This document shows, piece after piece, positions 13,761 through 35,107 of a stretch of DNA of 64,000 bases; the stretch's first letter is position 1, and each line of letters begins with the position of its first letter. The notes beneath the pieces were generated by a model. The model saw nothing but the letters and a program-made list of their open reading frames with translations, did no database searches and had not been told where the DNA came from. Source of the stretch: Planctomycetota bacterium (GTDB lineage Bacteria; Planctomycetota; SZUA-567; JAKLDR01); NCBI GenBank assembly GCA_022703445.1, contig JAKLDR010000005.1:36107-100106 (forward strand). The letters run 5' to 3'. A program made the translations under genes and the position numbers.

Positions 13761-16496
13761 TTACTTCCTCCCGGCCACCTCCGCGCAAAGCGCGAAGAGC
13801 CGGTCATCGCGCTCCTGCCAGCCGGAGCACTCCATGGCCAGCCAGCGGTTGCCGGCCCGCGAGCTCTCCTGGCCGCGCAGGAAGTACCGGGCGCGCTCGT
13901 CGAGCAATTCCACGATCTTCCTGTTGAGCTCGGGCGCCACGCGCTTCTCCTCCTGGGCGCGCTCCAGGAAGATGATGGCCTCGGCCACCTGCACGCCCTC
14001 CCGGAACATCTCCATGCGCTGGTTGAAGACCGCCCCGTCCGGACCGGCGCTGAAGAGCGCCGTGGTGCTCTCGCCCGGGCCGACCGCCTTGAAAGTGTCG
14101 AATAGCACCACGGGCTTGCCGCCCTTGTCGCTGGGGATCATCCAGGAGTCGCCGCCCACCCGCCCGAGGCCGTTGAGGTTGCCCTGCAGCGTGGCCTCGC
14201 TGATGAAGCGGTGCATGGCCAGCGTCGAGGTCTCCCGCAGGGAGTCGCCGATGATCACGGACAGGCCCATCCGCGGATTGCCGAACTCGCGCCGCTTGTT
14301 GCCGTTGGTCCAGAAGCGCGGATAGACCGGCCAGGGCCGGCCGCCGCCGTCCGGGTCGTAGGCGAAGCCGCAGCCCCAGACCCACTCGCTGTAGGGCACC
14401 GGCATGCTGACGCCCTTGGCCGTGCCGGCGAAGGCGCTGATGTTGGGGTGGCTGGTCTGCATCCACTTGCCGTCGGGCCAGATGTTCCTGCAGACGTCGA
14501 CGACCGTCGGGTGCGGGCCGACCGCGTAGTTGATGTGGCAAACCGCGGTCACATCCCACCATCCCCGCTTCTCGAGGCGTTTCCGGAGTTCGGCCAGGAC
14601 CGGCTTCCAGAAGGCCTCGTTCTCGGGCGTGCCGTAAGGCGGCTGGGCCATGGGTTCGACCTTGCCGGTGGCCGGGTCAAGGACGCTGACCGGCGCGCCC
14701 TTGGCGATGCCGACGTCCTTGGCGTTGCCCGCGCAGTTCGGCCAGGGATCGAGGCAGAGGATCGCCGGCTTGCCGCAGTTCTTCTCGTAGAGGTCCATGT
14801 ACTTCTCGGCGATGCTGAAGTCGTAGTCATAGGCCGCTTGCCCTGAGCCCGTCGAAGGGTCCGGCTTCCGGACCCAGCGGACCATCGATTCCGAGTTGTT
14901 GAAGCTCGGGCTGTTGGCCACCAGGTGGACCATGCAGAGCTTGTTGCCGACCTCGCCGAAGGCCTTGAGCGACCTGCCCATCAGCTCGAAGTGCTTCTCG
15001 CTCCAGAGCGGGACCTTGTAGTGCCGCGCCACCGAGTCCACCGACTGGAAGATGTTGTGGTGCGTCGTGAAGTCCCGCGCGTCCGGAATCCGCCAGTCGT
15101 TCACCTTGAGCCTGACGGGCACGGAGAACTTCGCCGGGCCGGCGGTGCCCGCGGCTTCGATGGAGAGCGTCGCCTGATACTCGCCGGCTGCGGAGTCGGC
15201 CGGTACCCGGACCGTCACCCACACCGGCACGACTGCGAGTAGGCGGCGGTCGCCCAGCAGCTTGGCCTGGGGGATGTCGGCCGGGAAGTTGCCCTGCAGG
15301 CGGTCGAAGTTCACCCGGCCCAGCGGGTCCCAGTGCGACAGGTTCACGTTCTCGGCCGAGACTCGCTCGGCCCAGCGCACCTGGACGGCGGAGGCCGGGA
15401 TCTGGCCCTTGCCCCCGGTCAGCGCCAACTCCGAGAGGCTGGCCTTCAAGCCTTTTATCGTATCGGCCGAGCTCAGGACGACCTTTCCGGAGAAGGTCCC
15501 GTTGCGCGCGCCGACCATCCGGATGGGCAGGACCTGGCCGCTCTCGCTGGGGTTGACGATGTCGGCGGCCGAGAGCGTCTCGCAGGGCGAGACCGTGGCG
15601 ATCTCGACGGCCGGCGTCGGAGAGTAGTTGGGCGTCAGCCCGTCGCCGCTCGAGGCCGTGAGCCGGGCGGCGGCCGCGAGCGCGTGCGGCCAGACCGCCG
15701 ACTGGCCCGGCCAGGACTTGTCCCCGACCGTCTTCTCGACGGCCAGCTCGTGCACCGGCGCGGCGCGGATCTCCACGGCCAGGACATTGAGCCCCTTGCG
15801 GAGCATCGCGCCCGGGATGACCACGCCGTCGGGCGCGCCCTTGGCCGGGAGCCCCCGGCCACGGACCCTGGCCAGCTCGGCCACGGCCCACTGGTTCTCG
15901 GCGCCCGGCCGGATCTTCCCGTCAGCGGTGATGTAGGCCTCGTCGGCGTAGCGCTCGGCGAGCGTCTCGGGCTCGAGCTTGCCGGCCGGGAGGTGTCCGC
16001 GGGCCAGTTCGGCGCCGTTCACGTAGACGACCGCGCCGCCGAAGTAGGTCAGTGACACCTTGAGGTCCTTGACCGCGGCCGGGTCGGCCACCCGGAACTT
16101 CCCGCGCAGGCAGACCAGGCTGCCCTCCAACGGGTTGGCGGGCCCGTAGGCCGAGGCGCTCGGCCAGCGGTTGAGCGCCGCGGGGTCGGAGATCCGCGGC
16201 CAGCAGGAGTCGTCGAAGTCGACGGCCGCCCAGTCCGCCGGCGGCGGCGCCGAGCCGCGCACCGGCACCGGCTTGCGGTCCTCCTCCTTGAGGTCCTTGC
16301 GCCGGGGCTCGAGCAGGGGCTTGAGCTTGCCGTCCGCTGAGATCAGCGTCGGCGTCCTCCAGCCCTCGAAGACCCGGAAGGAGCCGCGGTTCAGGTCCAG
16401 GACCACGGTCTCGGTCGGGGTCTTGGCCGGCTCGGCGGCGGACCCCGCGCCGGCGAACGCCAGCGCCGACACCAGTGTCAGCATCAGGTGTCTCAT
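13761..16496 (-). CDS. secreted DUF4091/GH123-like glycoside-hydrolase-domain protein, paralog 1 of 4
   Basis: ORF 13761..16700. Start set at MRHLMLTLVSALAFAGAGSA (signal peptide), where the ATG overlaps the upstream stop as ATGA. It has a GH2-sugar-binding-like segment GSLVCLRGKFRV...GGAVVYVNGAELARGHLP, then WVTVRVPADSAAGEYQATLSIEA...KVNDWRIP. The family assignment is from memory and uncertain. Confidence 0.8.
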   Translation of the reverse strand: MRHLMLTLVSALAFAGAGSAAEPAKTPTETVVLDLNRGSFRVFEGWRTPTLISADGKLKPLLEPRRKDLKEEDRKPVPVRGSAPPPADWAAVDFDDSCWPRISDPAALNRWPSASAYGPANPLEGSLVCLRGKFRVADPAAVKDLKVSLTYFGGAVVYVNGAELARGHLPAGKLEPETLAERYADEAYITADGKIRPGAENQWAVAELARVRGRGLPAKGAPDGVVIPGAMLRKGLNVLAVEIRAAPVHELAVEKTVGDKSWPGQSAVWPHALAAAARLTASSGDGLTPNYSPTPAVEIATVSPCETLSAADIVNPSESGQVLPIRMVGARNGTFSGKVVLSSADTIKGLKASLSELALTGGKGQIPASAVQVRWAERVSAENVNLSHWDPLGRVNFDRLQGNFPADIPQAKLLGDRRLLAVVPVWVTVRVPADSAAGEYQATLSIEAAGTAGPAKFSVPVRLKVNDWRIPDARDFTTHHNIFQSVDSVARHYKVPLWSEKHFELMGRSLKAFGEVGNKLCMVHLVANSPSFNNSESMVRWVRKPDPSTGSGQAAYDYDFSIAEKYMDLYEKNCGKPAILCLDPWPNCAGNAKDVGIAKGAPVSVLDPATGKVEPMAQPPYGTPENEAFWKPVLAELRKRLEKRGWWDVTAVCHINYAVGPHPTVVDVCRNIWPDGKWMQTSHPNISAFAGTAKGVSMPVPYSEWVWGCGFAYDPDGGGRPWPVYPRFWTNGNKRREFGNPRMGLSVIIGDSLRETSTLAMHRFISEATLQGNLNGLGRVGGDSWMIPSDKGGKPVVLFDTFKAVGPGESTTALFSAGPDGAVFNQRMEMFREGVQVAEAIIFLERAQEEKRVAPELNRKIVELLDERARYFLRGQESSRAGNRWLAMECSGWQERDDRLFALCAEVAGRK

Positions 16497-17438: not shown

Positions 17439-17542
17439 GTCAGGTGTCAGGTTTCAGGTGTCAGGTGTCAGCACGGAGTCTCTGACACCCCTTCGACGCT
17501 GCTCAGGGCCTTGAGCTTGTCGAAAGGCTGAACACTGGAACC
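17439..17542. repeat. nested-palindrome intergenic repeat, copy 1 (GGTGTCAG/GGTTTCAG words flanking a CCTTCGAC..GCTCAGGG palindrome)
   Basis: Inner palindrome at 17488-17527 (CCCTTCGACGCTGCTCAGGG / CCTTGAGCTTGTCGAAAGG). A second stem GGTGTCAG..CTGACACC and outer arms built from tandem TCAGGTG/TCAGGTT words. Its reverse complement recurs at 28461-28582. Confidence 0.85.
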
Positions 17543-17548
17543 TCTCCG

Positions 17549-20200
17549 TCACTTTACCTCACACGTCTCTTCGGCGGCGTACTTCCGGTCGACGCGCACG
17601 ACGCGGCGGCTGTAGAGGTCGCCGACGTAGATCTTCTTCTCGCTCGCGCCGGCCGAGAGCGGCCAGCCCAGCGGCACCTCCGGCGTGGCGATCAGCGGCT
17701 TCTTGTCCGCCGAGCCCTCCGGCACCCACTGCGAGTCGAAGTTGCCGTAGGCGCCGAACTTGGTTATCTCGTTGCCGGCGTTGTCCAGCACGCGCACGTC
17801 GAACGTGCAGGTGTTGGGGATCACCAGCCGGCCGTAGGCGTCCAGGTCGAAGCGCGGCGAGCGGCAGACGCAGCCGCCCGGCTCCTTCGTGGGGGTGGCG
17901 CCGCTGAACGAGCCGTAGCCCGGATAGGCCCCGGCCACTCCTTCGTATTCGGCCAGGCGGTCCCGCTTGCCCTTGGGCAGGCCGCCGCCCTCCGGCTTGA
18001 ATTTGACCACGCTGCCGATGCCGCTCTGGAAGGCGGCGTCGCCCTCGAAGCCCGCCGGCGGCTTGTAGCCCTCGGGCAGAAGGTTCATGCCCACGTAGAC
18101 GAAGCCCCGCCGGTCCACCTTGAGTCCGCCGCAGGCCCCCGGGACCAGGCCGATCAGCGCGCTGTTGATGCCCCGGTCGGCCAGCGGCCTGAGGTCACCG
18201 TGGTCGGGCTGGGTCTTGAGGCGCTCGATCTGCGCGGTGCAGACCTTCGGGCCGGGGATGAACTTGCCGTCGCGGTCGTAGGTGACCACGTAGTAGTCGC
18301 CCCAGGCGAGCAAGCCCATCGAGTAGAGCCGGCCGTCCCAGCCCAGGCACGAGCCCTTGGTGCAGTAGCCCTGGCCGTAGCGGCCGAAGACCCAGCCGAT
18401 GGTGTCGCTCTTGGTGGCGGCCAGCGGGGCGGGCTTGAGGTCCCGGTCCATCCGCTTGTAGGCGCCGGAGAAACCCGTTTTCCCATCCTGGATGTAGACG
18501 AATCCGTCCGGGCTGACCACCGTGTCGGTGGCGACGAGCGGATCCATCCGACCGTCCTTCATCGCCCCGTTGTACTTGCCGGTGAGGCCAGAGTAGCGGT
18601 AGGTCCGGATCCAGCCGTCGGAGACGTAGACGTCGTCGGTCTCCGGGTCCACGGTGATGCGGTCCACGCCGCGAATGGCCAACGGGTCGCGCTCGCTCAG
18701 GTCCTCGATGATCCTGAACTCGGTGCCGGCGTCCTCGATGCGCAGCAGGCCGTGGCCGGCGTTGCGGCCGTTGACGTTGGCCAGCCAGACCTGGGGCTTG
18801 GCGGCGCCGAAGTCCACGGCCAGGAAGGACTGCTGGTTCTCGGTCGTGCCCTGGAACTCGATCCGGGCCAGCTGCCTGGCGCCGGCCTCGCAGGCCGAGA
18901 ACTTGGCGAGAGTCACCTTGGCCGCCCGGCTGATGACGTAGACCGCGCCGGTTTTGTCGTCGACCACGGCCCCCTGCGCGCCGGGGAAGGGGAGGGCGCC
19001 GGTCTCCTTCCCGGCGGAGTCGAAGCGGCGCACCGCGCCGTTGGCGAAGTCGCAGACGTAGACGTTGCCCTTGGCGTCGACGGTCACGCCCTGGAGGGCG
19101 CTGGTGGCCATGCCGGGCGCCCAGCCGGCCTCGGGGGGGCGGCACTTGTCGGGGAGCGCCACGTCGGCGAAGGTCTCCATGCCCTGGCCGATCTTGTCGA
19201 GCGACATCTTGTAGACCCGCCCATCCGGGAGGTCCGGGTTGAGCTTCTGGCCCTTGTCCGCGACCCGCGCCTTGCCGGTCAGGTAGAGCGTCTTGCCGTC
19301 GGCGGCCACGGCCATGGCCGGCGAGCCGCCGATGGCGCAGTAGTCGGGGAAGCGCTTGTCGCCCTGCGGCCAGAGCGACTCGCCGAAGACGCCGCCGACC
19401 GCGCCGCCGTCCGCCGCGCGCACCCGACAGAGGACCCGGAAGCTCTCATCGATCAGCAGCAGCACGCCGTCGGGCGTGACTGCCCCCAGCTTCAGAGTCA
19501 GCGGACCGTAGGAGCGCGAGTAGCCCTTGGGCTTGGTCTCGTAGAGGTAGGCCCAGAGGCTGCCCTGGTTGCGGGGCACGAGCGCCTCGCCCGGAGCGGC
19601 GATCAGGCCGAAGGGGGCGGCGTCCTCTTTCTTCAAGTTCGCGGGGTAGGGCATGACCGTGCGCAGGTATTTGCCGGTGCGGTCGAAGACCCGGATGTCG
19701 GTCGAGCCGCCGCCGTTGTAGGCCTCCTCGCGGACGTAGAGGTTGCCCGCGGCGTCGAGGACCATGCCGCGCACCGGCGAGTAGCGCACGGTGCAGAGCG
19801 CGTAGGGGCTCGCGCCCACGAAGCCGTCGAAGACCGTCTTCGTCCCGGCGCGGACGCGGACCTTGAAGGGGCCGCCCGCGGCGGGTTTGCCGAAGTCGTC
19901 CTTCCCGTCCCAGACGATCTCCTGGACGAGCCCGGCCTTGAGCGGCTCCGGCGGCGGCTTCGGCCCGCCCAGGACGCCGGCAGCCAGGTGGCAGACGATC
20001 TTGCCGGCCGCGTCCAACACCGCCACCTCCACGTCGGTCGGCGCCGAGACGGTGAAGCTGATCTTCACCTTGCCCTGCCCTGAGCTTGTCGAAGGGTCGC
20101 CTTCCTTCGCGGCGGCCGGCTTGGCGGTGAAGGCCGCCTCGCCGGCGGTGGCCGTCGTAGCCATGATGAGCCCCGTCATCACGATTAGTGCGCTGCGCAT
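17549..20200 (-). CDS. secreted FlgD-Ig-like + NHL/beta-propeller repeat protein, paralog 1 of 2
   Basis: ORF 17549..20293. Start at MRSALIVMTGLIMATTATAGEAAF (SD AGGAGAG). The N-terminal KVKISFTVSAPTDVEVAVLDAAGK...WDGKDD resembles the FlgD Ig-like domain. NHL-like strands follow, e.g. DAKGNVYVCDFANGAVRRFD. Confidence 0.8.
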   Translation of the reverse strand: MRSALIVMTGLIMATTATAGEAAFTAKPAAAKEGDPSTSSGQGKVKISFTVSAPTDVEVAVLDAAGKIVCHLAAGVLGGPKPPPEPLKAGLVQEIVWDGKDDFGKPAAGGPFKVRVRAGTKTVFDGFVGASPYALCTVRYSPVRGMVLDAAGNLYVREEAYNGGGSTDIRVFDRTGKYLRTVMPYPANLKKEDAAPFGLIAAPGEALVPRNQGSLWAYLYETKPKGYSRSYGPLTLKLGAVTPDGVLLLIDESFRVLCRVRAADGGAVGGVFGESLWPQGDKRFPDYCAIGGSPAMAVAADGKTLYLTGKARVADKGQKLNPDLPDGRVYKMSLDKIGQGMETFADVALPDKCRPPEAGWAPGMATSALQGVTVDAKGNVYVCDFANGAVRRFDSAGKETGALPFPGAQGAVVDDKTGAVYVISRAAKVTLAKFSACEAGARQLARIEFQGTTENQQSFLAVDFGAAKPQVWLANVNGRNAGHGLLRIEDAGTEFRIIEDLSERDPLAIRGVDRITVDPETDDVYVSDGWIRTYRYSGLTGKYNGAMKDGRMDPLVATDTVVSPDGFVYIQDGKTGFSGAYKRMDRDLKPAPLAATKSDTIGWVFGRYGQGYCTKGSCLGWDGRLYSMGLLAWGDYYVVTYDRDGKFIPGPKVCTAQIERLKTQPDHGDLRPLADRGINSALIGLVPGACGGLKVDRRGFVYVGMNLLPEGYKPPAGFEGDAAFQSGIGSVVKFKPEGGGLPKGKRDRLAEYEGVAGAYPGYGSFSGATPTKEPGGCVCRSPRFDLDAYGRLVIPNTCTFDVRVLDNAGNEITKFGAYGNFDSQWVPEGSADKKPLIATPEVPLGWPLSAGASEKKIYVGDLYSRRVVRVDRKYAAEETCEVK

Positions 20201-28460: not shown

Positions 28461-28582
28461 AGGTTTCAGGTTTCAGTGTTCAGCCTTTCGACAAGCTCAA
28501 GGCCCTGAGCAGCGTCGAAGGGGTGTCAGAGACTGGGCCTGACACCCGAAACCTGACACCCGAAACCTGACACCTGAAACCT
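28461..28582. repeat. nested-palindrome intergenic repeat, copy 2 (inverted relative to copy 1)
   Basis: The reverse complement aligns with 17439-17542. The inner palindrome is at 28484-28523 (CCTTTCGACAAGCTCAAGG / CCCTGAGCAGCGTCGAAGGGG). Confidence 0.85.
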
Positions 28583-28587
28583 CGCTG

Positions 28588-31332
28588 TCACTTCCCGCCC
28601 ATCGCCTTCGCCACCTCCGCGCACAGCGCGAAGAGCCGATCGTCGCGCTCCTGCCAGCCCGAGCCGGCGAAGACATGGAAGGTCGAGCCGTGCTCCTCGG
28701 CCCGGAGCATATGCCGGGCGCGCTCGTCGAGCAGGTCATTGATCTTCTTGGCGACCTCGGGCGAGACCTTCTTGTCCTCCATGGCGCGCTGCAGGAAGAA
28801 GATCGCCTCGCCGACCTGCACGCCCTCGCGGAAGATCTCCATGCGCTCGTTGAAGGCGGCGCCGTCCGGTCCCGGGCTGAAGCAGGCCACGACGGCATCC
28901 TGCATGTCGATGCCCTGGCCGCCGTAGGAGACGCGCACCAGCCGCTTCTTCTCTCCGGTCGACTGAACCGGCCAGAAGTCGCCGCCCAGGTAGCCCAGGC
29001 CCCACAGGTTGCCCTGGATGGTCATCTCGGTGACGGCCTTGTAGGCCGCGAGCCTGGAGCCGTCGTACAGGGCGTTGATGAACTGCACGCCGAACCGCGG
29101 GAAGCCCAGGATGACGCTCTTGGGGCCGTGCCGCCAATGCTGGGGATACTGGTTCTGGTACTTCTTCTGGAAGTACGGGTTGTCCGGGTCGTAGAGGTCC
29201 CCGCAGCCCCAGACGTACTCGTCGCACATGACCGGCATCTTCACGTCCTTGGTCGTCCCCTGGTACTCGAGCGGGCAGGTGTGGGCGGTGTGCATCCACT
29301 TGCCATCGGGCCAGATCTTCTTGAAGACGTCGACCATCTGCGGGTCGGCGGGCTTCGAGTAGTGCACCCAGCCGAAGGCGGCCACGTCGTACCAGCCGCG
29401 CTTGTCCAGGCGCTTCTTGAGCTCGACGAGCACCGGCCGCCAGAAGGCCTCGTTCTCCGGCGTGCCGAACGGCGGCTGGGGCAACTGGTCGACCTTGCCG
29501 GTGGCCGGGTCGAAGACGCTGACGTTCTGGACGGTCTGACCGCTCTTGGCCTTGGCCTCGTTGATCCGCTGCCAGGCGTCCAGGCGCAGGACGCCGGGCT
29601 TGCCGGAGGTCTTCTCGTAGAGATCCAGGTACTTGTCGAGAATGGTGAAGTCGTAGTCATAGGCCGCTTGCCCTGAGCCTGCCGAAGGGTCGGCCTTCTT
29701 GACCCAGCGCACCATGCCTTCGCTGTTGCCCAGCGTGAAGCTGTCGGCCAGCAGGCTGGCGACGCACATCCTATTGCCAACCTGCTTGAAGGCGGCCAGC
29801 GACTTGCCCATCAGCTCGAAGTGCTTGTCGCTCCACATGGGCACGTTGTAGTAGCGGGCCACCGAGTCCGGGGACTGGTAGAAGTTGTGGTGGATGACGA
29901 AGTCCTTGGGGTCCGGCGCCTTCCAGTCGTGAACCTTGAGCTCCACCGGCACGTCGAACTTGGCCGCCGCCGCGCCCTCGGCCTCGACGGTCAGCGTCCC
30001 CTTGTACTCGCCGGCCGCGGCGTCGGCCGGCACCGGCACAGTCACCCAGATCGGCACTATGACCTGCTTGCGGTTGCCGGCCTGGGGGACGCTGGCCGGG
30101 AAGTCGGCGACGAGCCGGTCGAACTGCCCCTGGGCCCAACCGGTCTGCGGCGCGGTCAGCTCCGCCCGGCGGACCTGTACCGCCGCAGCCGGAATCTTGG
30201 CCTTGCCGTCCGCCCCGGTGAGGTCCGAAACGAACGCTTTGAGGTTCCTAACTGCCTCGGCCGAGGTCAGCACCACCTTGCCGGAGAAGACGCCGTTGCG
30301 CGCCCCCACCATGCGGATGGGGTTGAGCTTGGCGCTCAGTGCCGGCGTCTCGTTCACGTAGACCGAGTCGATCGACTGGACGTTGGCCAGCTGGATCCCC
30401 GAGCCCAGGCCCGCACCGTCCAGGCCGGCCGCCGACGGCGCGATCAGCCGGGCGCTCACCACCATGCAGTGCGGGAAGGGCTTCTGGTGTTCGCCGGTCC
30501 AGGTCGTCTTCCCGTCGGTCAGTTCGAAGACCAGCTCGTTGACCGGGGCGGCGCGCACCTCGATGGCGATCACGTTGGCGCCCTTGCGGAGGGCCGAGGA
30601 GGGAATGGCCAGGCCGCCCGGCGCACCATCCTTGCCGGCGAACTCCCGGCGCCGGCCCTTCAGGGCCTCGTTGGTGAACTCCGGGGTCTTGTAGTTGAGG
30701 GTGCCGCCCCGGCTGTCGATGACATAGGGGCGGAACTTCTTGTCCGCGGTGACGTAGGCGTCCTCGGGGTAGGGCGTGGCCATGGTCTCGGGCGCGAGCT
30801 TTCCCTCCTGGAGATGGGCCCGCCCCAGTTCTGCGCCGTTCACGTAGACGACGGCGCCGCCGGTGAAGCCCAGATCGAGCCGGAGGTCCTTGACCTGCGC
30901 GGGGTCGGCGACCTTGAACGTCCCGCGCATGCAGACCAGGTTGCCCTCCAACACGTTCCTCGAGGCGTAGCGCTTGTCGGCATAGGGGGCGCTGGCCATC
31001 CAGCTGTTGACCGTCACCCACTTGTTGCAGCGCGGCCAGACGCTGTCGTCGAACTCCGGCGCGAACCAGTTGGCCGGCGGGGGAGCCGAGGAACGCACGG
31101 CGAGCGGCTTGCGGTCCTCGTCTTTCAACTCCTTGCGCTTGGGCTCGAGCAGGGGCTTGAGCTTGCCGTCCGCCGAGATCAGCGTTGGCGTCTTCCAGCC
31201 CACGAAGGCCCGGAAGGAGGACTGCTCGAGATCCAGGACCACGGTATCCGGGTTGGGCCTGGGCGGTTCGCCGGCGAGGGTCGCCGCCGCCATCAGGAGC
31301 CAGGCTGCCGCGCACGTCAGGATCAGGCGCAT
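28588..31332 (-). CDS. secreted DUF4091/GH123-like protein, paralog 4 of 4
   Basis: The track ORF 28588..32709 is a stop-free read-through. The real start is ATG 31332 (MRLILTCAAAWLLMAAATLAGEPP), preceded by AAGGAG. 914 aa, collinear with the paralogs. Confidence 0.85.
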   Translation of the reverse strand: MRLILTCAAAWLLMAAATLAGEPPRPNPDTVVLDLEQSSFRAFVGWKTPTLISADGKLKPLLEPKRKELKDEDRKPLAVRSSAPPPANWFAPEFDDSVWPRCNKWVTVNSWMASAPYADKRYASRNVLEGNLVCMRGTFKVADPAQVKDLRLDLGFTGGAVVYVNGAELGRAHLQEGKLAPETMATPYPEDAYVTADKKFRPYVIDSRGGTLNYKTPEFTNEALKGRRREFAGKDGAPGGLAIPSSALRKGANVIAIEVRAAPVNELVFELTDGKTTWTGEHQKPFPHCMVVSARLIAPSAAGLDGAGLGSGIQLANVQSIDSVYVNETPALSAKLNPIRMVGARNGVFSGKVVLTSAEAVRNLKAFVSDLTGADGKAKIPAAAVQVRRAELTAPQTGWAQGQFDRLVADFPASVPQAGNRKQVIVPIWVTVPVPADAAAGEYKGTLTVEAEGAAAAKFDVPVELKVHDWKAPDPKDFVIHHNFYQSPDSVARYYNVPMWSDKHFELMGKSLAAFKQVGNRMCVASLLADSFTLGNSEGMVRWVKKADPSAGSGQAAYDYDFTILDKYLDLYEKTSGKPGVLRLDAWQRINEAKAKSGQTVQNVSVFDPATGKVDQLPQPPFGTPENEAFWRPVLVELKKRLDKRGWYDVAAFGWVHYSKPADPQMVDVFKKIWPDGKWMHTAHTCPLEYQGTTKDVKMPVMCDEYVWGCGDLYDPDNPYFQKKYQNQYPQHWRHGPKSVILGFPRFGVQFINALYDGSRLAAYKAVTEMTIQGNLWGLGYLGGDFWPVQSTGEKKRLVRVSYGGQGIDMQDAVVACFSPGPDGAAFNERMEIFREGVQVGEAIFFLQRAMEDKKVSPEVAKKINDLLDERARHMLRAEEHGSTFHVFAGSGWQERDDRLFALCAEVAKAMGGK

Positions 31333-32602: not shown

Positions 32603-35107
32603 TCACTTGGCCTCGGCCGTATCCTCGGCCGCAAAGACCTTGTCAACCCGGACGAGGCGGTGGTTGAGGGCGTCGCCGACGTAGATGAACTTGTCGCTGG
32701 CGCCGGCAAAGACCGGCCAGCCCAGCGGGATCTCGGGCTTCGGTTCGGCGCTCTTCGGCCCCTGGGCGTCCCAGTTGCCGTAGCCGCCGAAGGAAAGGAT
32801 GGTGTTGTCGGAGTTGTCCACGAGCGTCACCTTGTAGGTCGAGCCGTTGGGGATGTAGAGCCGGCCGTAGGCGTCGACGTCGAAGCGCGCCTTGGTGCAG
32901 CGGCAGCAGGCGCCGAGCGAGCCCCAGGCGCCGGAGATCGGGCCGCACGCCGGTCCGTAGGTCCGCAGCGCGCCGACCGGGACGCCCTTCTGGAACTCGC
33001 CGCCCTTGGGGCCGAACTTGTAGATGGCACCGCAAGTCCCCTGGTAGGCCGGGTCCTTCTCGAAGCCCTTGGGCGGGACGTGCCCCTTGGGCAGGCCGAT
33101 CTGCAGAACGTAGACGTTGCCGGCCGCGTCCGCCCGGACGCTGCCGCTCTGGTCGAGCATGCCGGTGACCAGCGCCGGCACGGGCGTCTTGATGTCCAGG
33201 CCGTGTCCGGACTGACCGGGGATCGCCTTGCGCTCGAACTCGACGGGCTTGCCGTCGGGCTCGAAGGCCTGGACCAGGCAGGTGTTGCAGCCGTTGGTCA
33301 CGTAGAGCCGGCCGTCCGGGGCGTAATCGAGGCCGGCCACCGAGTTGCCGCGCCCCATGCGCCCCATGCCGTTGACGTAGGTGTCCTTGCCGGTGGCCAG
33401 CGGAGCGGGTTTGAAGTCCCGGGTGTAGCGCTTCAGTGGCCCGGTCCAGCCCTGCCAGACGCAGAACGTCCCGTCGGGGGCGACCGCCACGTCGACTCCT
33501 CCGACGGGCGTCAGGCCGCCCTCGCCGGTCTCGCCGTTGAATCTCCAGATTTGCCTGGAGTCGGTGACGTAGACGAGTTCGGCGGAGGTGTCCACGTCGC
33601 CGAAACACACGAAACCGACGACGTTCTTGTCGGCGTTGAGGATGCTTCCGCCGGAGTCGGCCAGCTCCGCCCCGCGGTCCTCGAGACGCAGCAGTTGCCC
33701 GCCACCTCCGAGCCAGATGACCGGCTTGTCGCCGGACTCGTCAAGGGCCATGGACTCGGGGGGAATGCCCTTGAGCGGAAGCTTGGCGACGACCTTGGCG
33801 TCCGCCCCACGGCCGGTGACCTTGAGCAGCGTCGCCGCGCCCGGCCGGAACGAGGGGTGGCTGTCGGAGACAGAGCAGGACAGCACGTAGAGCGTCCCGG
33901 CCTTGGAGCTGACCATCACCCGGTCGGGCCAGGGCACCTTGGTGGCGCCGAGCTTCTGGCCCTCGGGGCTGACCTCGACCACCTCCTGGTTGACCAGGTC
34001 GCAGACGAACACGTTGCCCTTGGCGTCGACGTCGAGGCCCGCCGCGGCGGTCCGCTTGTTCCAGGCGTTGGGCAGCCAGTACTTCTGCTTGTCGTAGTCG
34101 GGCAGCTCCAGGTCGTAGAACTTCTCGGGGTCGGAACCGGCCCTGGAGAGGTCCTGGCGGTAGACCCGCCCCTGGGGGAACTGCTTGTCCATCTTCGAGG
34201 GGTGAACGTCCTTGTCCGCGGGGGTGTTGGCCACGTTCGAGTAGTACGCGTACTTGCCGTCCGGCGAGAAGGCCAGCTGCGGCGCGAGCCCGTTGGCCCA
34301 CTTGAGCTTCTCCGGCTTCGAACGCATGGGCACGGTCCGGACCGCGTTGGAGCCGTCGACCTTGAAGAAGGTCAGCCGGGCCGAGCCGTTGTCCGTGAAG
34401 ATCACGTTTCCGTCCACCACCCGGGAGTAGAGGTTCTCGCCGAAGTTGAAGAGCACCACATCCAGCCCGGAGTTGTTCCCGGGGGTCAGCAGCCCGTCGC
34501 CGGCGTCGATCAGGCGGAAGCCCGAGGCCTTGGCCGGCTCGGTCGATGGCGGATAGGGCAGGAGCGTTTTCTGGTACTTGCCGGCCCGGTCGAACCGGCG
34601 CAGCTGCCAGGGCAGCCCCTGGTGGAGGTTGCCCACCGCCGAGGTCATCTTGGCGTAGAGCGTCCCGTCCGGGGCCGTGGCCAGCCCCGCCACCTCCGAC
34701 CACAGCTCGCCGGTGTAGGGGCTGGTGCCGATGATCCGGCCGAACTTGGCGGACATGCCGGCGCGGACCCGGAACTTGAAGGGCCCGCCGGCCGCGGGCT
34801 TGCCGGCGTCGTCCTTGCCGTCCCAGACCAGCGATTGGGCGAGCCCTGCCGCGAGCGGCTCGGGCGGAGGATTCTTAGCCCCGAGGACCCCGGCGGCCAG
34901 ATGCCGCACGGCCTTGCCGTCGGCGCCGAGCACCGCCACCTCGACGTCGGTCGGCGCGGAGACGGTGAAGGTGATCTTCACCTTGTCGCCGTCTTTGGCT
35001 GCCGCCGGCTTGGCGGCGAAGGACACTTCGCCGGCGAGGACGGCAGAAGCCCCGACCGCGGCGGTAAAAACCATCATGCCCAGCATCGGAATCACACCCT
35101 TGCTCAT
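32603..35107 (-). CDS. secreted FlgD-Ig-like + NHL/beta-propeller repeat protein, paralog 2 of 2
   Basis: 834 aa. The N-terminus aligns with paralog 1 (AAKPAAAKDGDKVKITFTVSAPTDVEVAVLGADGK...). SD GAGGAG. ATGA overlap with the upstream gene. Confidence 0.85.
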   Translation of the reverse strand: MSKGVIPMLGMMVFTAAVGASAVLAGEVSFAAKPAAAKDGDKVKITFTVSAPTDVEVAVLGADGKAVRHLAAGVLGAKNPPPEPLAAGLAQSLVWDGKDDAGKPAAGGPFKFRVRAGMSAKFGRIIGTSPYTGELWSEVAGLATAPDGTLYAKMTSAVGNLHQGLPWQLRRFDRAGKYQKTLLPYPPSTEPAKASGFRLIDAGDGLLTPGNNSGLDVVLFNFGENLYSRVVDGNVIFTDNGSARLTFFKVDGSNAVRTVPMRSKPEKLKWANGLAPQLAFSPDGKYAYYSNVANTPADKDVHPSKMDKQFPQGRVYRQDLSRAGSDPEKFYDLELPDYDKQKYWLPNAWNKRTAAAGLDVDAKGNVFVCDLVNQEVVEVSPEGQKLGATKVPWPDRVMVSSKAGTLYVLSCSVSDSHPSFRPGAATLLKVTGRGADAKVVAKLPLKGIPPESMALDESGDKPVIWLGGGGQLLRLEDRGAELADSGGSILNADKNVVGFVCFGDVDTSAELVYVTDSRQIWRFNGETGEGGLTPVGGVDVAVAPDGTFCVWQGWTGPLKRYTRDFKPAPLATGKDTYVNGMGRMGRGNSVAGLDYAPDGRLYVTNGCNTCLVQAFEPDGKPVEFERKAIPGQSGHGLDIKTPVPALVTGMLDQSGSVRADAAGNVYVLQIGLPKGHVPPKGFEKDPAYQGTCGAIYKFGPKGGEFQKGVPVGALRTYGPACGPISGAWGSLGACCRCTKARFDVDAYGRLYIPNGSTYKVTLVDNSDNTILSFGGYGNWDAQGPKSAEPKPEIPLGWPVFAGASDKFIYVGDALNHRLVRVDKVFAAEDTAEAK

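What the first reader, a model, noticed from the sequence alone, without database searches (positions are those of the whole stretch)
20072..20095. The same palindrome arm inserted in frame (PSTSSGQG) in an unrelated gene, the FlgD-Ig/NHL paralog 1
Seen: the sense sequence at 20095-20072 is CCT TCG ACA AGC TCA GGG CAG GGC, inserted after GGC GAC. This gives ..AAAKEGD-PSTSSGQG-KVKISFTV. The paralog at 32603-35107 reads ..AAAKDGD-KVKITFTV with exactly 24 nt fewer. All three coding copies (this one plus 14835 and 29665) follow a GAC codon, share the same orientation and are read in the same frame. I recall peptides such as FDKLRAG / LSLSKG / PELVEG, the other frames of this DNA, turning up in spurious ORFs of GC-rich genomes. 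That is memory, not a checked fact.
Basis: partly seen in the sequence, partly recalled or inferred. Interest (0 to 1): 0.6.

Follow-up and report, generated by a model that had tools for sequence, protein, structure and literature searches.

The report
24-base repeat inserted in-frame
A 24-base copy of a small hairpin DNA repeat found in many bacterial phyla has recently landed inside a secreted-protein gene, adding eight harmless residues (PSTSSGQG) to a surface loop; dozens of such inserts in this genus are nearly all read in that one frame.

Summary
At 20072-20095 (minus strand) the host gene carries exactly 24 extra bases, read as PSTSSGQG.

**It is a recent insertion, not an old loop.** The window paralog lacks it. 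So do the four closest database orthologs (85, 82, 69 and 64% identity), and so do nearly all of more than 100 family members. The 85% ortholog shows a clean empty site, GGCGA|CAAGG, with no target duplication.

**What the insert is.** It is a self-contained unit: a 4-bp stem, an 11-base conserved loop and a short tail. It belongs to a REP-like repeat family whose exact 20-mer occurs in at least 120 contigs across many phyla.

**Frame bias.**
- This genome has 22 single coding units and a congeneric genome has 14. All are read as PSTGSG(Q/P).
- Only 2 and 1 units, respectively, lie in the antisense PALS frame.
- Five of the six frames are open, so avoiding stop codons cannot explain the bias. 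PSTGSGQ is the only reading made entirely of small polar residues.

**Other support.**
- The insert uses rare codons.
- It sits in a low-confidence loop of the predicted Ig-like domain.
- Orthologs in the two species differ by exact 24-base gaps.

The closest known cases are intragenic REPs and Rickettsia palindromic elements. What moves the unit is unknown. First readers of this scan noted in-frame 24-nt copies on other genomes.

The parts
20072..20095 (-). The 24-nt insert CCTTCGACAAGCTCAGGGCAGGGC, translated as PSTSSGQG. It is equivalent to 20073-20096 because of the one-base ambiguity. It has a stem CCCT/AGGG, a loop TCGACAAGCTC and a tail C-AGGG.
   Evidence: The empty site in the 85% ortholog is shown. 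Rare codons are shown.
17549..20200 (-). The host gene, 883 aa. It has a signal peptide, a FlgD_ig-like Ig domain, and an SGL/NHL beta-propeller. It aligns full length to its orthologs, so it is intact.
   Evidence: SGL 28.3 bits, FlgD_ig 25.1 bits just under the cut-off of 27, NHL 20.8 bits..
34982..34987 (-). The empty site GAC|AAG (D41|K42) in the window paralog 32603-35107.
14835..14858 (-). A unit of the same family in a GH123/DUF4091 paralog, read as PSTGSGQA after a GAC codon.
29665..29688 (-). A unit of the same family in another GH123/DUF4091 paralog, read as PSAGSGQA after a GAC codon.
17488..17527 (+). An intergenic doublet of two units in inverted orientation, just after the host gene's stop codon. 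It is absent at this position in the 85% ortholog locus.
28484..28523 (+). A second intergenic doublet, the inverted copy of the one at 17488-17527.

Best explanation
A 24-nt unit of a dispersed, REP-like hairpin repeat was inserted into the coding sequence of a secreted FlgD-Ig/NHL protein, between GGCGA and CAAGG, without a target duplication.

**Why it survives.** The unit is 8 codons long, so the reading frame is kept. In this orientation and phase it reads Pro-Ser-Thr-Ser-Ser-Gly-Gln-Gly, and it lies in a turn between two beta strands. The protein tolerates it there, and the insert is carried as a neutral passenger.

**Why one frame dominates.** Insertions happen repeatedly in this genus. 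Those in other frames or orientations, or in structured parts of proteins, are removed by selection. That leaves the one-frame, loop-only pattern seen today.

**Shown:** the insertion itself, its recency, membership of the repeat family, the frame bias, the loop location, and the absence of a target duplication.

**Inferred:** that selection on the peptide causes the bias, and that the unit is moved in trans by an enzyme acting on single-stranded hairpin DNA. That enzyme has not been identified.
For: **Insertion and recency**
- Orthologs at 85, 82, 69 and 64% identity lack the 8 residues.
- The nucleotide alignment with the 85% ortholog has one 24-nt gap with near-identical flanks: 8 matching bases on the left and 27 of the 28 on the right.
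- In a maximum-likelihood tree of 105 family members, the 7 paralogs carrying the insert at this site each sit next to an insert-free neighbour: five have an insert-free sister at SH-aLRT 98-100, one lies in an unresolved clade and one branches next to a mostly insert-free clade. That requires 7 changes for 7 rows.

**Mobility in the genus**
- Orthologs of 72-81% amino-acid identity in the two congeneric genomes differ by exact 24-nt gaps at three sites in four G001 genes.
- Inserts shared by both species diverge like their flanks, with 3 of 24 and 4 of 25 differences.
- Same-family genomes G002 and G003 have no copies of the unit.

**Non-coding origin**
- The insert uses CCT, ACA and TCA, which make up 3.4, 2.0 and 1.8% of their codon families.
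- Insert GC3 is 62.5% against 94.3% in the gene family.

**Repeat family**
- 140 arms occur in the genome against 9 in the reversed-genome control.
- The exact 20-mer occurs in at least 120 contigs across phyla.
- The stem covaries: 67-71 of 82 units form Watson-Crick pairs against 27-44 expected.
- Cultured isolates carry 78-183 copies of the loop motif.

**Frame bias**
- 22 of 24 single coding units here and 14 of 15 in G001 are in the PSTGSG frame.
- Counted conservatively, 14 of 15 distinct sites are in that frame, giving P about 2e-9 if the 5 open frames were equally likely.
- PSTGSGQ is the only reading with no charged or bulky residues.

**Loop location**
- In the AlphaFold2 model the insert (aa 36-43) lies between strands 29-33 and 44-51.
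- pLDDT is below 50 at residues 38-40, while the rest of the domain is about 90 or more.
Against: - No mobilising enzyme was found. The three Y1/RAYT genes of the genome are not flanked by this unit, and no protein family is enriched near units in 120 loci from other phyla.
- About 45% of coding inserts fall in one small domain of one paralog family. The target word GGCGACAAGG occurs 141 times in the genome, yet it is filled only in that domain. Random insertion plus selection may therefore not be the whole story. Short-tract gene conversion between paralogs, or a longer target context, may contribute.
- No copy of the exact coding subtype (tails AGGG, CTGG) was seen in intergenic DNA of this genome, so the donor is unclear.
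- Translation of the insert has not been shown.
- The genome is a fragmented assembly (314 contigs, 81% complete).
Confidence: 0.75

Rival explanations
1. This particular copy was not inserted afresh. It was copied from another insert-bearing FlgD-Ig paralog by short-tract gene conversion. This would explain why the same site is filled in many paralogs.
For: The N-terminal domain is much more conserved between paralogs (65-75% identity) than the rest of the protein (about 40%). At least 10 paralogs here and 4 in G001 carry the unit at the same site. The target word alone does not explain the hot spot.
Against: The units in different paralogs differ in their variable centre (AAG, GGG, AGG; GAC or GGC) and in their tails (AGGG, CTGG, AGGC). 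The same unit also sits in unrelated genes such as GH123, so a non-homologous route must exist. The flanks show no obvious conversion tract.
Confidence: 0.12
2. The eight residues are a selected functional motif, for example a flexible linker, a glycosylation site or a processing site in secreted proteins. On this view the DNA similarity to the repeat family reflects co-option.
For: Use of one frame is nearly exclusive. There is recurrent gain at the same loops of a secreted protein family, and the hosts are mostly exported proteins.
Against: Most family members and all close orthologs lack it. Shared inserts diverge like their flanks, including amino-acid changes such as T to A. The same DNA is mostly intergenic elsewhere, at 82 of 86 sites. 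The codons are rare ones.
Confidence: 0.07
3. The segment is an ancient loop of the family that has been lost precisely in the other members.
For: Some inserts predate the split of the two species (L048 with C247, L043 with C307).
Against: This would need dozens of exact 24-nt losses. Related families and genera have the protein family but none of the units. The codon signature is foreign.
Confidence: 0.03
4. The insert is an assembly or binning artefact.
For: The genome is a fragmented metagenome-type assembly.
Against: The insert is exact and in frame. The same pattern appears in an independent genome of the genus and in cultured isolates of other phyla.
Confidence: 0.02

Closest known systems
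Intragenic REPs (GTAG- and CGTC-tagged palindromic repeats; Di Nocera, De Gregorio and Rocco 2013, PMC3733652)
   Same: These are short stem-loop repeats present in tens to hundreds of copies, as single units, inverted dimers and clusters, and mostly intergenic. Some lie entirely within ORFs of known proteins, and some repeat ends supply a stop codon. The authors propose neutrality because the inserts sit in flexible linkers or loops, and they note that one super-family lacks a dedicated transposase.
   Different: The unit here has no GTAG or CGTC tag. Its stem is only 3-4 bp in the coding copies, with a conserved 11-13-nt loop. Its peptide and nucleotide words are absent from that paper's supplementary lists. 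The near-exclusive use of one frame, the fixed 24-nt length, and the near-identity of the unit across phyla were not among the passages of that paper that I read (keyword look-ups only).
Rickettsia palindromic elements (RPE; Ogata et al. 2000 and 2002, as summarised in PMC10969869)
   Same: This is selfish palindromic DNA inserted in frame into unrelated protein-coding genes, giving a conserved extra peptide judged compatible with the fold and function of the host protein.
   Different: RPEs are about 100-150 bp and restricted to Rickettsia. Here the unit is 24 nt (8 codons), belongs to a family found in many phyla, and hits the same loops of one expanded paralog family again and again.
REP/REPIN elements mobilised by RAYT (Y1, HUH) transposases, and IS200/IS605-type hairpin elements
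   Same: These are hairpin units, often in inverted doublets, that insert without target duplication. The left flank here is often the same short word (GGCGA or GGCGG in more than half of the sites), which recalls insertion 3' of a fixed target in IS200/IS605. That comparison rests on established knowledge of those families, not on a test made here.
   Different: No RAYT or Y1 gene flanked by this unit was found. Classical REPs are species-specific and co-evolve with their RAYT, whereas this loop is conserved across phyla.
GC clusters of yeast mitochondria
   Same: From my own knowledge, not checked here: these are short GC-rich mobile palindromes that also occur in frame inside a coding gene (var1).
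   Different: They are organellar, unrelated in sequence and of different sizes.

Membership tests
REP / REPIN (RAYT-mobilised) | Short imperfect palindrome in high copy number, mostly extragenic. | tested here: met
   140 arms against 9 in the control. Most are intergenic palindromes. 82 of 86 cross-phylum hits are intergenic. Isolates carry 78-183 copies.
REP / REPIN (RAYT-mobilised) | Inverted doublets (REPIN-like dimers). | tested here: met
   The window doublets at 17488-17527 and 28484-28523. Convergent pairs 50-58 nt apart in a Sphingomonas genome.
REP / REPIN (RAYT-mobilised) | A RAYT gene flanked by the same repeat (REPtron). | tested here: not met
   Three Y1_Tnp genes are present. 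None is flanked by the strict unit, and only a long-loop look-alike lies downstream of the one on C234.
GTAG/CGTC-tagged REP super-families | An unpaired GTAG or CGTC tetranucleotide at one end of the stem-loop. | tested here: not met
   The unit consensus is CCGTTCG-NNN-T-GAGCYTGTCGA-A-N'N'N' and has neither tag at its ends. Its words are absent from the paper's supplements.
Rickettsia palindromic elements | In-frame insertion in ORFs of functional proteins. | tested here: met
Rickettsia palindromic elements | Element length of about 100-150 bp and membership of an RPE sequence family. | tested here: not met
   The insert is exactly 24 nt. Sequence relatedness to RPEs was not examined.
MITE | Terminal inverted repeats plus a target-site duplication. 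| tested here: not met
   Five exact filled-versus-empty pairs show no duplication.
IS200/IS605-type hairpin element or its derivative | Insertion 3' of a fixed 4-5-nt target, without duplication. | tested here: inconclusive
   There is no duplication. The left flank is GGCGA or GGCGG in more than half of the sites but varies in the rest. GGCGAC occurs 11,426 times in the genome.
FlgD_ig / NHL / SGL (host protein) | Pfam domain matches at the curated cut-offs. | tested here: inconclusive
   SGL scores 28.3 (cut-off 26.3) and NHL 20.8 (cut-off 20), so both pass. FlgD_ig scores 25.1, just under its cut-off of 27. The AlphaFold2 model of aa 24-120 is an all-beta, six-strand domain.

The most novel reading that the evidence does not exclude
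The 24-nt unit is an ultra-short mobile module found in many bacterial phyla: a 4-bp covarying stem, a conserved 11-13-nt loop and a short tail. It is moved in trans by machinery that has not been identified. Two properties let it colonise coding sequences in many phyla and add eight-residue loops to proteins: its length is a multiple of three, and one of its frames reads only Ser, Thr, Gly, Pro and Gln with no stop. This would be a general, undescribed source of small insertions in bacterial proteins.
Probability: 0.3. Interest if true: 0.85.

Novelty: new variant of a known kind. Interest (0 to 1): 0.6.

Why it matters
Small insertions in protein loops are usually put down to replication slippage. 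Here a defined, recurrent 8-codon insert comes from a dispersed hairpin repeat. It can be dated by comparing filled and empty sites between sister species, and it hits the same loops again and again in a family of more than 100 secreted paralogs.

**For annotators.** It explains a recurrent PSTGSGQ(A/G) block in proteins, and the FDKLRA, LSLSK and PELVEG strings in spurious ORFs.

**For mobile-DNA biology.** It points to a repeat family whose loop is nearly identical in Proteobacteria, Actinomycetota, Chloroflexota, Cyanobacteria, Acidobacteriota and Planctomycetota. I found no description of it and no associated transposase. Cultured isolates with 80-180 copies would make its mobility directly testable.

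Tried and rejected
- **Rfam.** There was no family on the window, on the 3-kb region at a permissive threshold, or on 10 cross-phylum loci.
- **Literature by peptide words and nucleotide words.** This gave only chance hits.
- **RAYT link.** Three Y1 genes exist, and none is flanked by the unit.
- **Neighbouring genes.** A search for a protein family enriched next to units in 120 loci found only generic families such as SDR and ABC.
- **Target-site duplication.** None was found.
- **The target word GGCGACAAGG as the full explanation of the hot spot.** Rejected: it occurs 141 times, and the filled copies all lie in the FlgD domain.
- **A stable hairpin in the mRNA as a function of the insert.** The fold is weak, at -5.5 kcal/mol as RNA and -1.9 to -2.9 as DNA.
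- **Ancient loop.** Rejected.
- **Half of a palindrome.** Replaced by the reading that it is a self-contained unit.
- **One 2026 preprint found in a search.** It could not be opened.
Full report
**1. The observation**

- On the minus strand, 20095-20072 reads CCT TCG ACA AGC TCA GGG CAG GGC, between GGC GAC and AAG GTG. The 24-mer is unique in the window at up to 3 mismatches.
- The host ORF, translated from the ATG at 20200, is an 883-aa protein that reads ..AAAKEGDPSTSSGQGKVKISFTV...
- The paralog at 32603-35107 reads ..AAAKDGDKVKITFTV... This is an exact 8-residue gap in the alignments.
- The 18-nt core recurs at 14838, 17506, 28488 and 29668, giving 5 matches against 0.09 expected.
- The two copies at 14835 and 29665 are coding, lie on the same strand, follow a GAC codon, and are read in the same frame.
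- The other two copies belong to intergenic inverted doublets.
- Pfam gives SGL and NHL above their cut-offs, and FlgD_ig just below its cut-off starting at residue 39.

**2. Insertion or old loop?**

The window lies in a 5.99-Mb, 69% GC assembly of 314 contigs. An earlier follow-up in this scan called the organism an uncultured planctomycete.

- The protein family is very large. The N-terminal domain gives more than 100 hits in this genome, and almost all of them lack the segment.
- A maximum-likelihood tree of 105 full-length members was built with the insert columns dropped.
  - Each of the 7 full-length paralogs that carry the unit at this site sits next to an insert-free neighbour. Five have an insert-free sister at SH-aLRT 98-100. 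One lies in an unresolved clade and one branches next to a mostly insert-free clade.
  - That needs 7 changes for 7 rows.
- The best database relatives of the host protein are 85, 82, 69 and 64% identical over the full length, and all lack the 8 residues.
- The DNA of the 85% ortholog has the empty site ...AGGGACGGCGA|CAAGGTGAAGATCAGC....
  - It has one 24-nt gap and near-identical flanks, and nothing is duplicated.
  - The intergenic doublet after the stop codon of our gene is also missing there.
- The segment is therefore a lineage-specific, fairly recent insertion.

**3. The same event elsewhere in the genus**

The strict arm CCNTTCGRCNNGCTCAGGGC occurs as follows:

| Genome | Copies |
|---|---|
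| This genome (G000) | 35 |
| The congeneric genome G001 | 22 |
| One other relative (G024) | 2 |
| 28 further relatives, including the two same-family genomes that do carry the protein family | 0 |

- Orthologs of 72-81% amino-acid identity in the two congeners differ by exact 24-nt gaps at three sites in four G001 genes:
  - GMLGD-PSTGSGQG-KAPEPL against GVLGD-KAPEPL
  - DLAQA-PSTGSGQG-GGKGS against DLAQA-GGKGS
  - RAGD-PSTGSGQG-KVTI against RAGD-KVTV
- A fourth site (CEGG-PSAGSGQG-ASIPAS against ADGG-AVIPAS) is 8 residues shorter at the protein level, but its nucleotide alignment has split gaps.
- Two inserts are shared by both species. They differ at 3 of 24 and 4 of 25 bases, about the same as their flanks.
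- Insertions therefore happened both before and after the split of the two species. Once in place, the insert evolves like ordinary coding DNA.

**4. What the inserted piece is**

Genome-wide, arms with a 3-nt or 4-nt centre number 86 and 54, against 7 and 2 in a reversed-genome control. Most are intergenic palindromes of several subtypes.

  - The phyla and classes include Cyanobacteria, Chloroflexota, Actinomycetota, Acidobacteriota, Nitrospirota, Myxococcota, Planctomycetota, a candidate-phylum lineage, and many Alpha-, Beta- and Gammaproteobacteria.
  - From base composition I expect about one chance match in that collection. This is my own estimate.
- Most hits continue as ...GGGCGAACGG.
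- I aligned 220 loops from those loci, 82 of them not of the type used as the query.
  - The loop GAGCYTGTCGA is conserved.
  - The 3 positions next to the closing T-A pair covary. Watson-Crick pairs occur in 67-71 of 82 units, against 27-44 expected if the two sides were independent.
  - The motif CCGTTCG is conserved on one side only.
- The inserted piece is therefore a minimal complete unit rather than half of a palindrome. In our gene it is CCCT-TCGACAAGCTC-AGGG plus a tail.
- Five cultured isolates from four classes carry 78-183 copies of the 13-nt loop against 0 in the control. In a Sphingomonas genome they mostly form convergent pairs.
- Within Planctomycetota the strict arm is patchy.
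  - It occurs in 38 of 251 genomes.
  - There are bursts of 13 to 54 copies.
  - This pattern is what a horizontally spreading repeat would give.

**5. Frame and orientation**

- In this genome, 22 single coding units are read as PSTGSG(Q/P).., counting two with one mismatch. Two are read in the antisense frame PALS..NG.
- In G001 the counts are 14 and 1.
- Full palindromes inside genes are read as GSTGSPPxALSxSKG or PSTSSGPQAVSPSNG. The first arm is again in the S-T-G-S frame.
- Counting each combination of gene family and site only once gives about 14 sites against 1. If the 5 open frames were equally likely, P is about 2e-9.
- Only one of the six frames has a stop codon, so avoiding stops is not the reason. 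PSTGSGQ is the only reading with 7 of 7 small or polar residues and none charged or bulky.
- Among the cross-phylum hits, 82 of 86 are intergenic, and the three clear coding ones are all PSTGSGQA.
  - One sits in a PfkB-type sugar kinase of an Anaerolineales genome, where a solved homolog has an 8-residue gap.
  - One sits in the inter-domain linker of a prephenate dehydratase of a Terriglobales genome.

**6. Signs of a passenger**

- The insert uses CCT, ACA and TCA, which make up 3.4, 2.0 and 1.8% of their codon families in 89 genes of the family.
- Insert GC3 is 62.5% against 94.3% for the family.
- An AlphaFold2 model of residues 1-135, built with a 27-sequence alignment, has a mean pLDDT of 79.7.
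  - It places the insert (aa 36-43) in the turn between strands 29-33 and 44-51.
  - pLDDT is below 50 at residues 38-40, while the rest of the domain scores 90 or more.
- The two other sites hit in this domain family are also between strands:
  - after ..DGGG, in C112
  - after ..VLGA or ..VLGD, in C90, C282 and three G001 genes
- The insert alone folds only weakly.

**7. Mechanism: what is and is not known**

- There is no target duplication.
- The unit is 24 nt at every exact filled-versus-empty pair, with tails AGGG or AAGG; re-reading the flanks by eye suggests the CTGG-tail copies are 24-nt units too.
- The left flank is GGCGA or GGCGG in more than half of the sites.
- Tandem arrays with periods of 22-24 nt in other phyla show junctions such as ..CAGGGCGA|CCCTTCGAC... 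These features recall hairpin elements handled as single-stranded DNA, but they prove nothing.
[quoted passage not shown] No protein family is enriched next to units in 120 loci.
- About 20 of the roughly 39 single coding units in the two genomes lie in the first 100 codons of the FlgD-Ig family.
- The word GGCGACAAGG occurs 141 times in the genome, and 10 of those are empty sites at this position in family members. All 4 filled copies are in this domain.
- Tolerance of these loops, a longer target context, or gene conversion between paralogs must therefore add to the pattern. I could not separate these three possibilities.

**8. Comparison with what is known**

- Intragenic REPs have been described. 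They occur as single units and dimers inside known genes, REP ends can supply stop codons, and neutrality in loops has been proposed. One REP super-family has no dedicated transposase (PMC3733652).
- Rickettsia palindromic elements are the classic case of in-frame selfish palindromes (PMC10969869).
- The present unit lacks the GTAG or CGTC tags, and its words are not in that paper's supplementary lists.
- It matches no Rfam family, and its peptide and nucleotide words gave no relevant paper.
- I therefore file it as a new variant of a known kind. Four features stand out:
  - the fixed 8-codon size
  - the near-exclusive use of one frame
  - the repeated hits on the same loops
  - the conservation of the unit across phyla

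**9. Earlier notes of this scan**

- Other first readers noted an exact in-frame 24-nt insertion of the same kind of element in a paralog in an AT-rich genome.
- They also noted the element inside comF and recG in other frames, and a filled-versus-empty 24-nt hairpin module.
- I did not test those notes. They fit the picture of a 24-nt module that occurs in many bacterial lineages.

**10. Limits**

- The genome is incomplete.
- Coding calls outside the family rest on GC3 periodicity and ORF length, not on a gene finder.
- Counts of independent sites are my own conservative grouping.

Noticed in passing
G000 contigs C290:18771 and C246:33050; G001 locus L040 around 1026: Three family genes end inside a unit. 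The usual C-terminus ..CEVK* is replaced by ..CPVGP*, with the TGA taken from CCCTGAGC of the repeat. The unit therefore supplies the stop codon.
   Followed up: partly
G000 C259:6288-6890 compared with G000 C259:19532-20077 and G001 L034 (about 3264, minus strand): The same site in one gene family exists in three states: empty (DLAQA|GGKGS), filled with a single unit (PSTGSGQG), and filled with a full palindrome (GGGGSTSSPPNALSPSKGQ).
   Followed up: partly
G001 L038 (about 1004) compared with G000 C291:20892-20206: At an orthologous site the two species carry different stem variants of the unit: CCCT..AGGG, read as PSTGSGQGGQK, against GCGG..CCGC, read as GQSGSTGLTAR. This is either a compensatory stem change or a replacement by another unit.
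   Followed up: no
Loci L051 (cyanobacterium), L106 (Actinomycetota) and L110 (Betaproteobacteria): Head-to-tail arrays of the unit with periods of 24, 24 and 22 nt. This suggests that the unit can insert next to itself or be amplified in tandem.
   Followed up: no
Genomes G270-G274, reached through L070, L095, L116, L059 and L078: The 13-nt loop TGAGCYTGTCGAA occurs 78-183 times in each of five cultured isolates from four classes, against 0 for the reversed control. In Sphingomonas the copies mostly form convergent pairs 50-58 nt apart.
   Followed up: partly
Window 17439-17542 and 28461-28582: The intergenic doublets are wrapped in tandem CAGGTGT/CAGGTTT-type words, forming a nested palindrome of about 105-120 bp present twice in opposite orientation. 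It is absent after the stop codon of the 85% ortholog.
   Followed up: partly
Whole genome G000, with window genes 17549-20200, 32603-35107 and their neighbours: There is a very large expansion of secreted FlgD-Ig plus beta-propeller paralogs, with more than 100 N-terminal domain hits and 37 or more full-length matches. They are often in tandem and interleaved with GH123 (DUF4091) genes. The N-terminal domain is far more conserved than the rest of the protein.
   Followed up: partly
G000 C234 (locus L173, about 1205-1232): A long-loop look-alike of the unit (GGGCCC-TGAGCGCCAAGCCGTCGAA-GGGGGG) lies just downstream of one of the three Y1 transposase genes. The contig ends inside that gene, so the other flank is unknown.
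   Followed up: no
G000 C306:19404; C247:12818; C300:14081; C146:22273: A few coding copies with a 4-nt centre, or of the CCCGAGC-type palindrome, are read in the PFD..(A/L)(Q/R)(G/A) frame just after signal peptides. Examples are AGEPFDSAQGKS and AGEPFDKLRAPSSAEG. These are exceptions to the PSTGSG rule.
   Followed up: no
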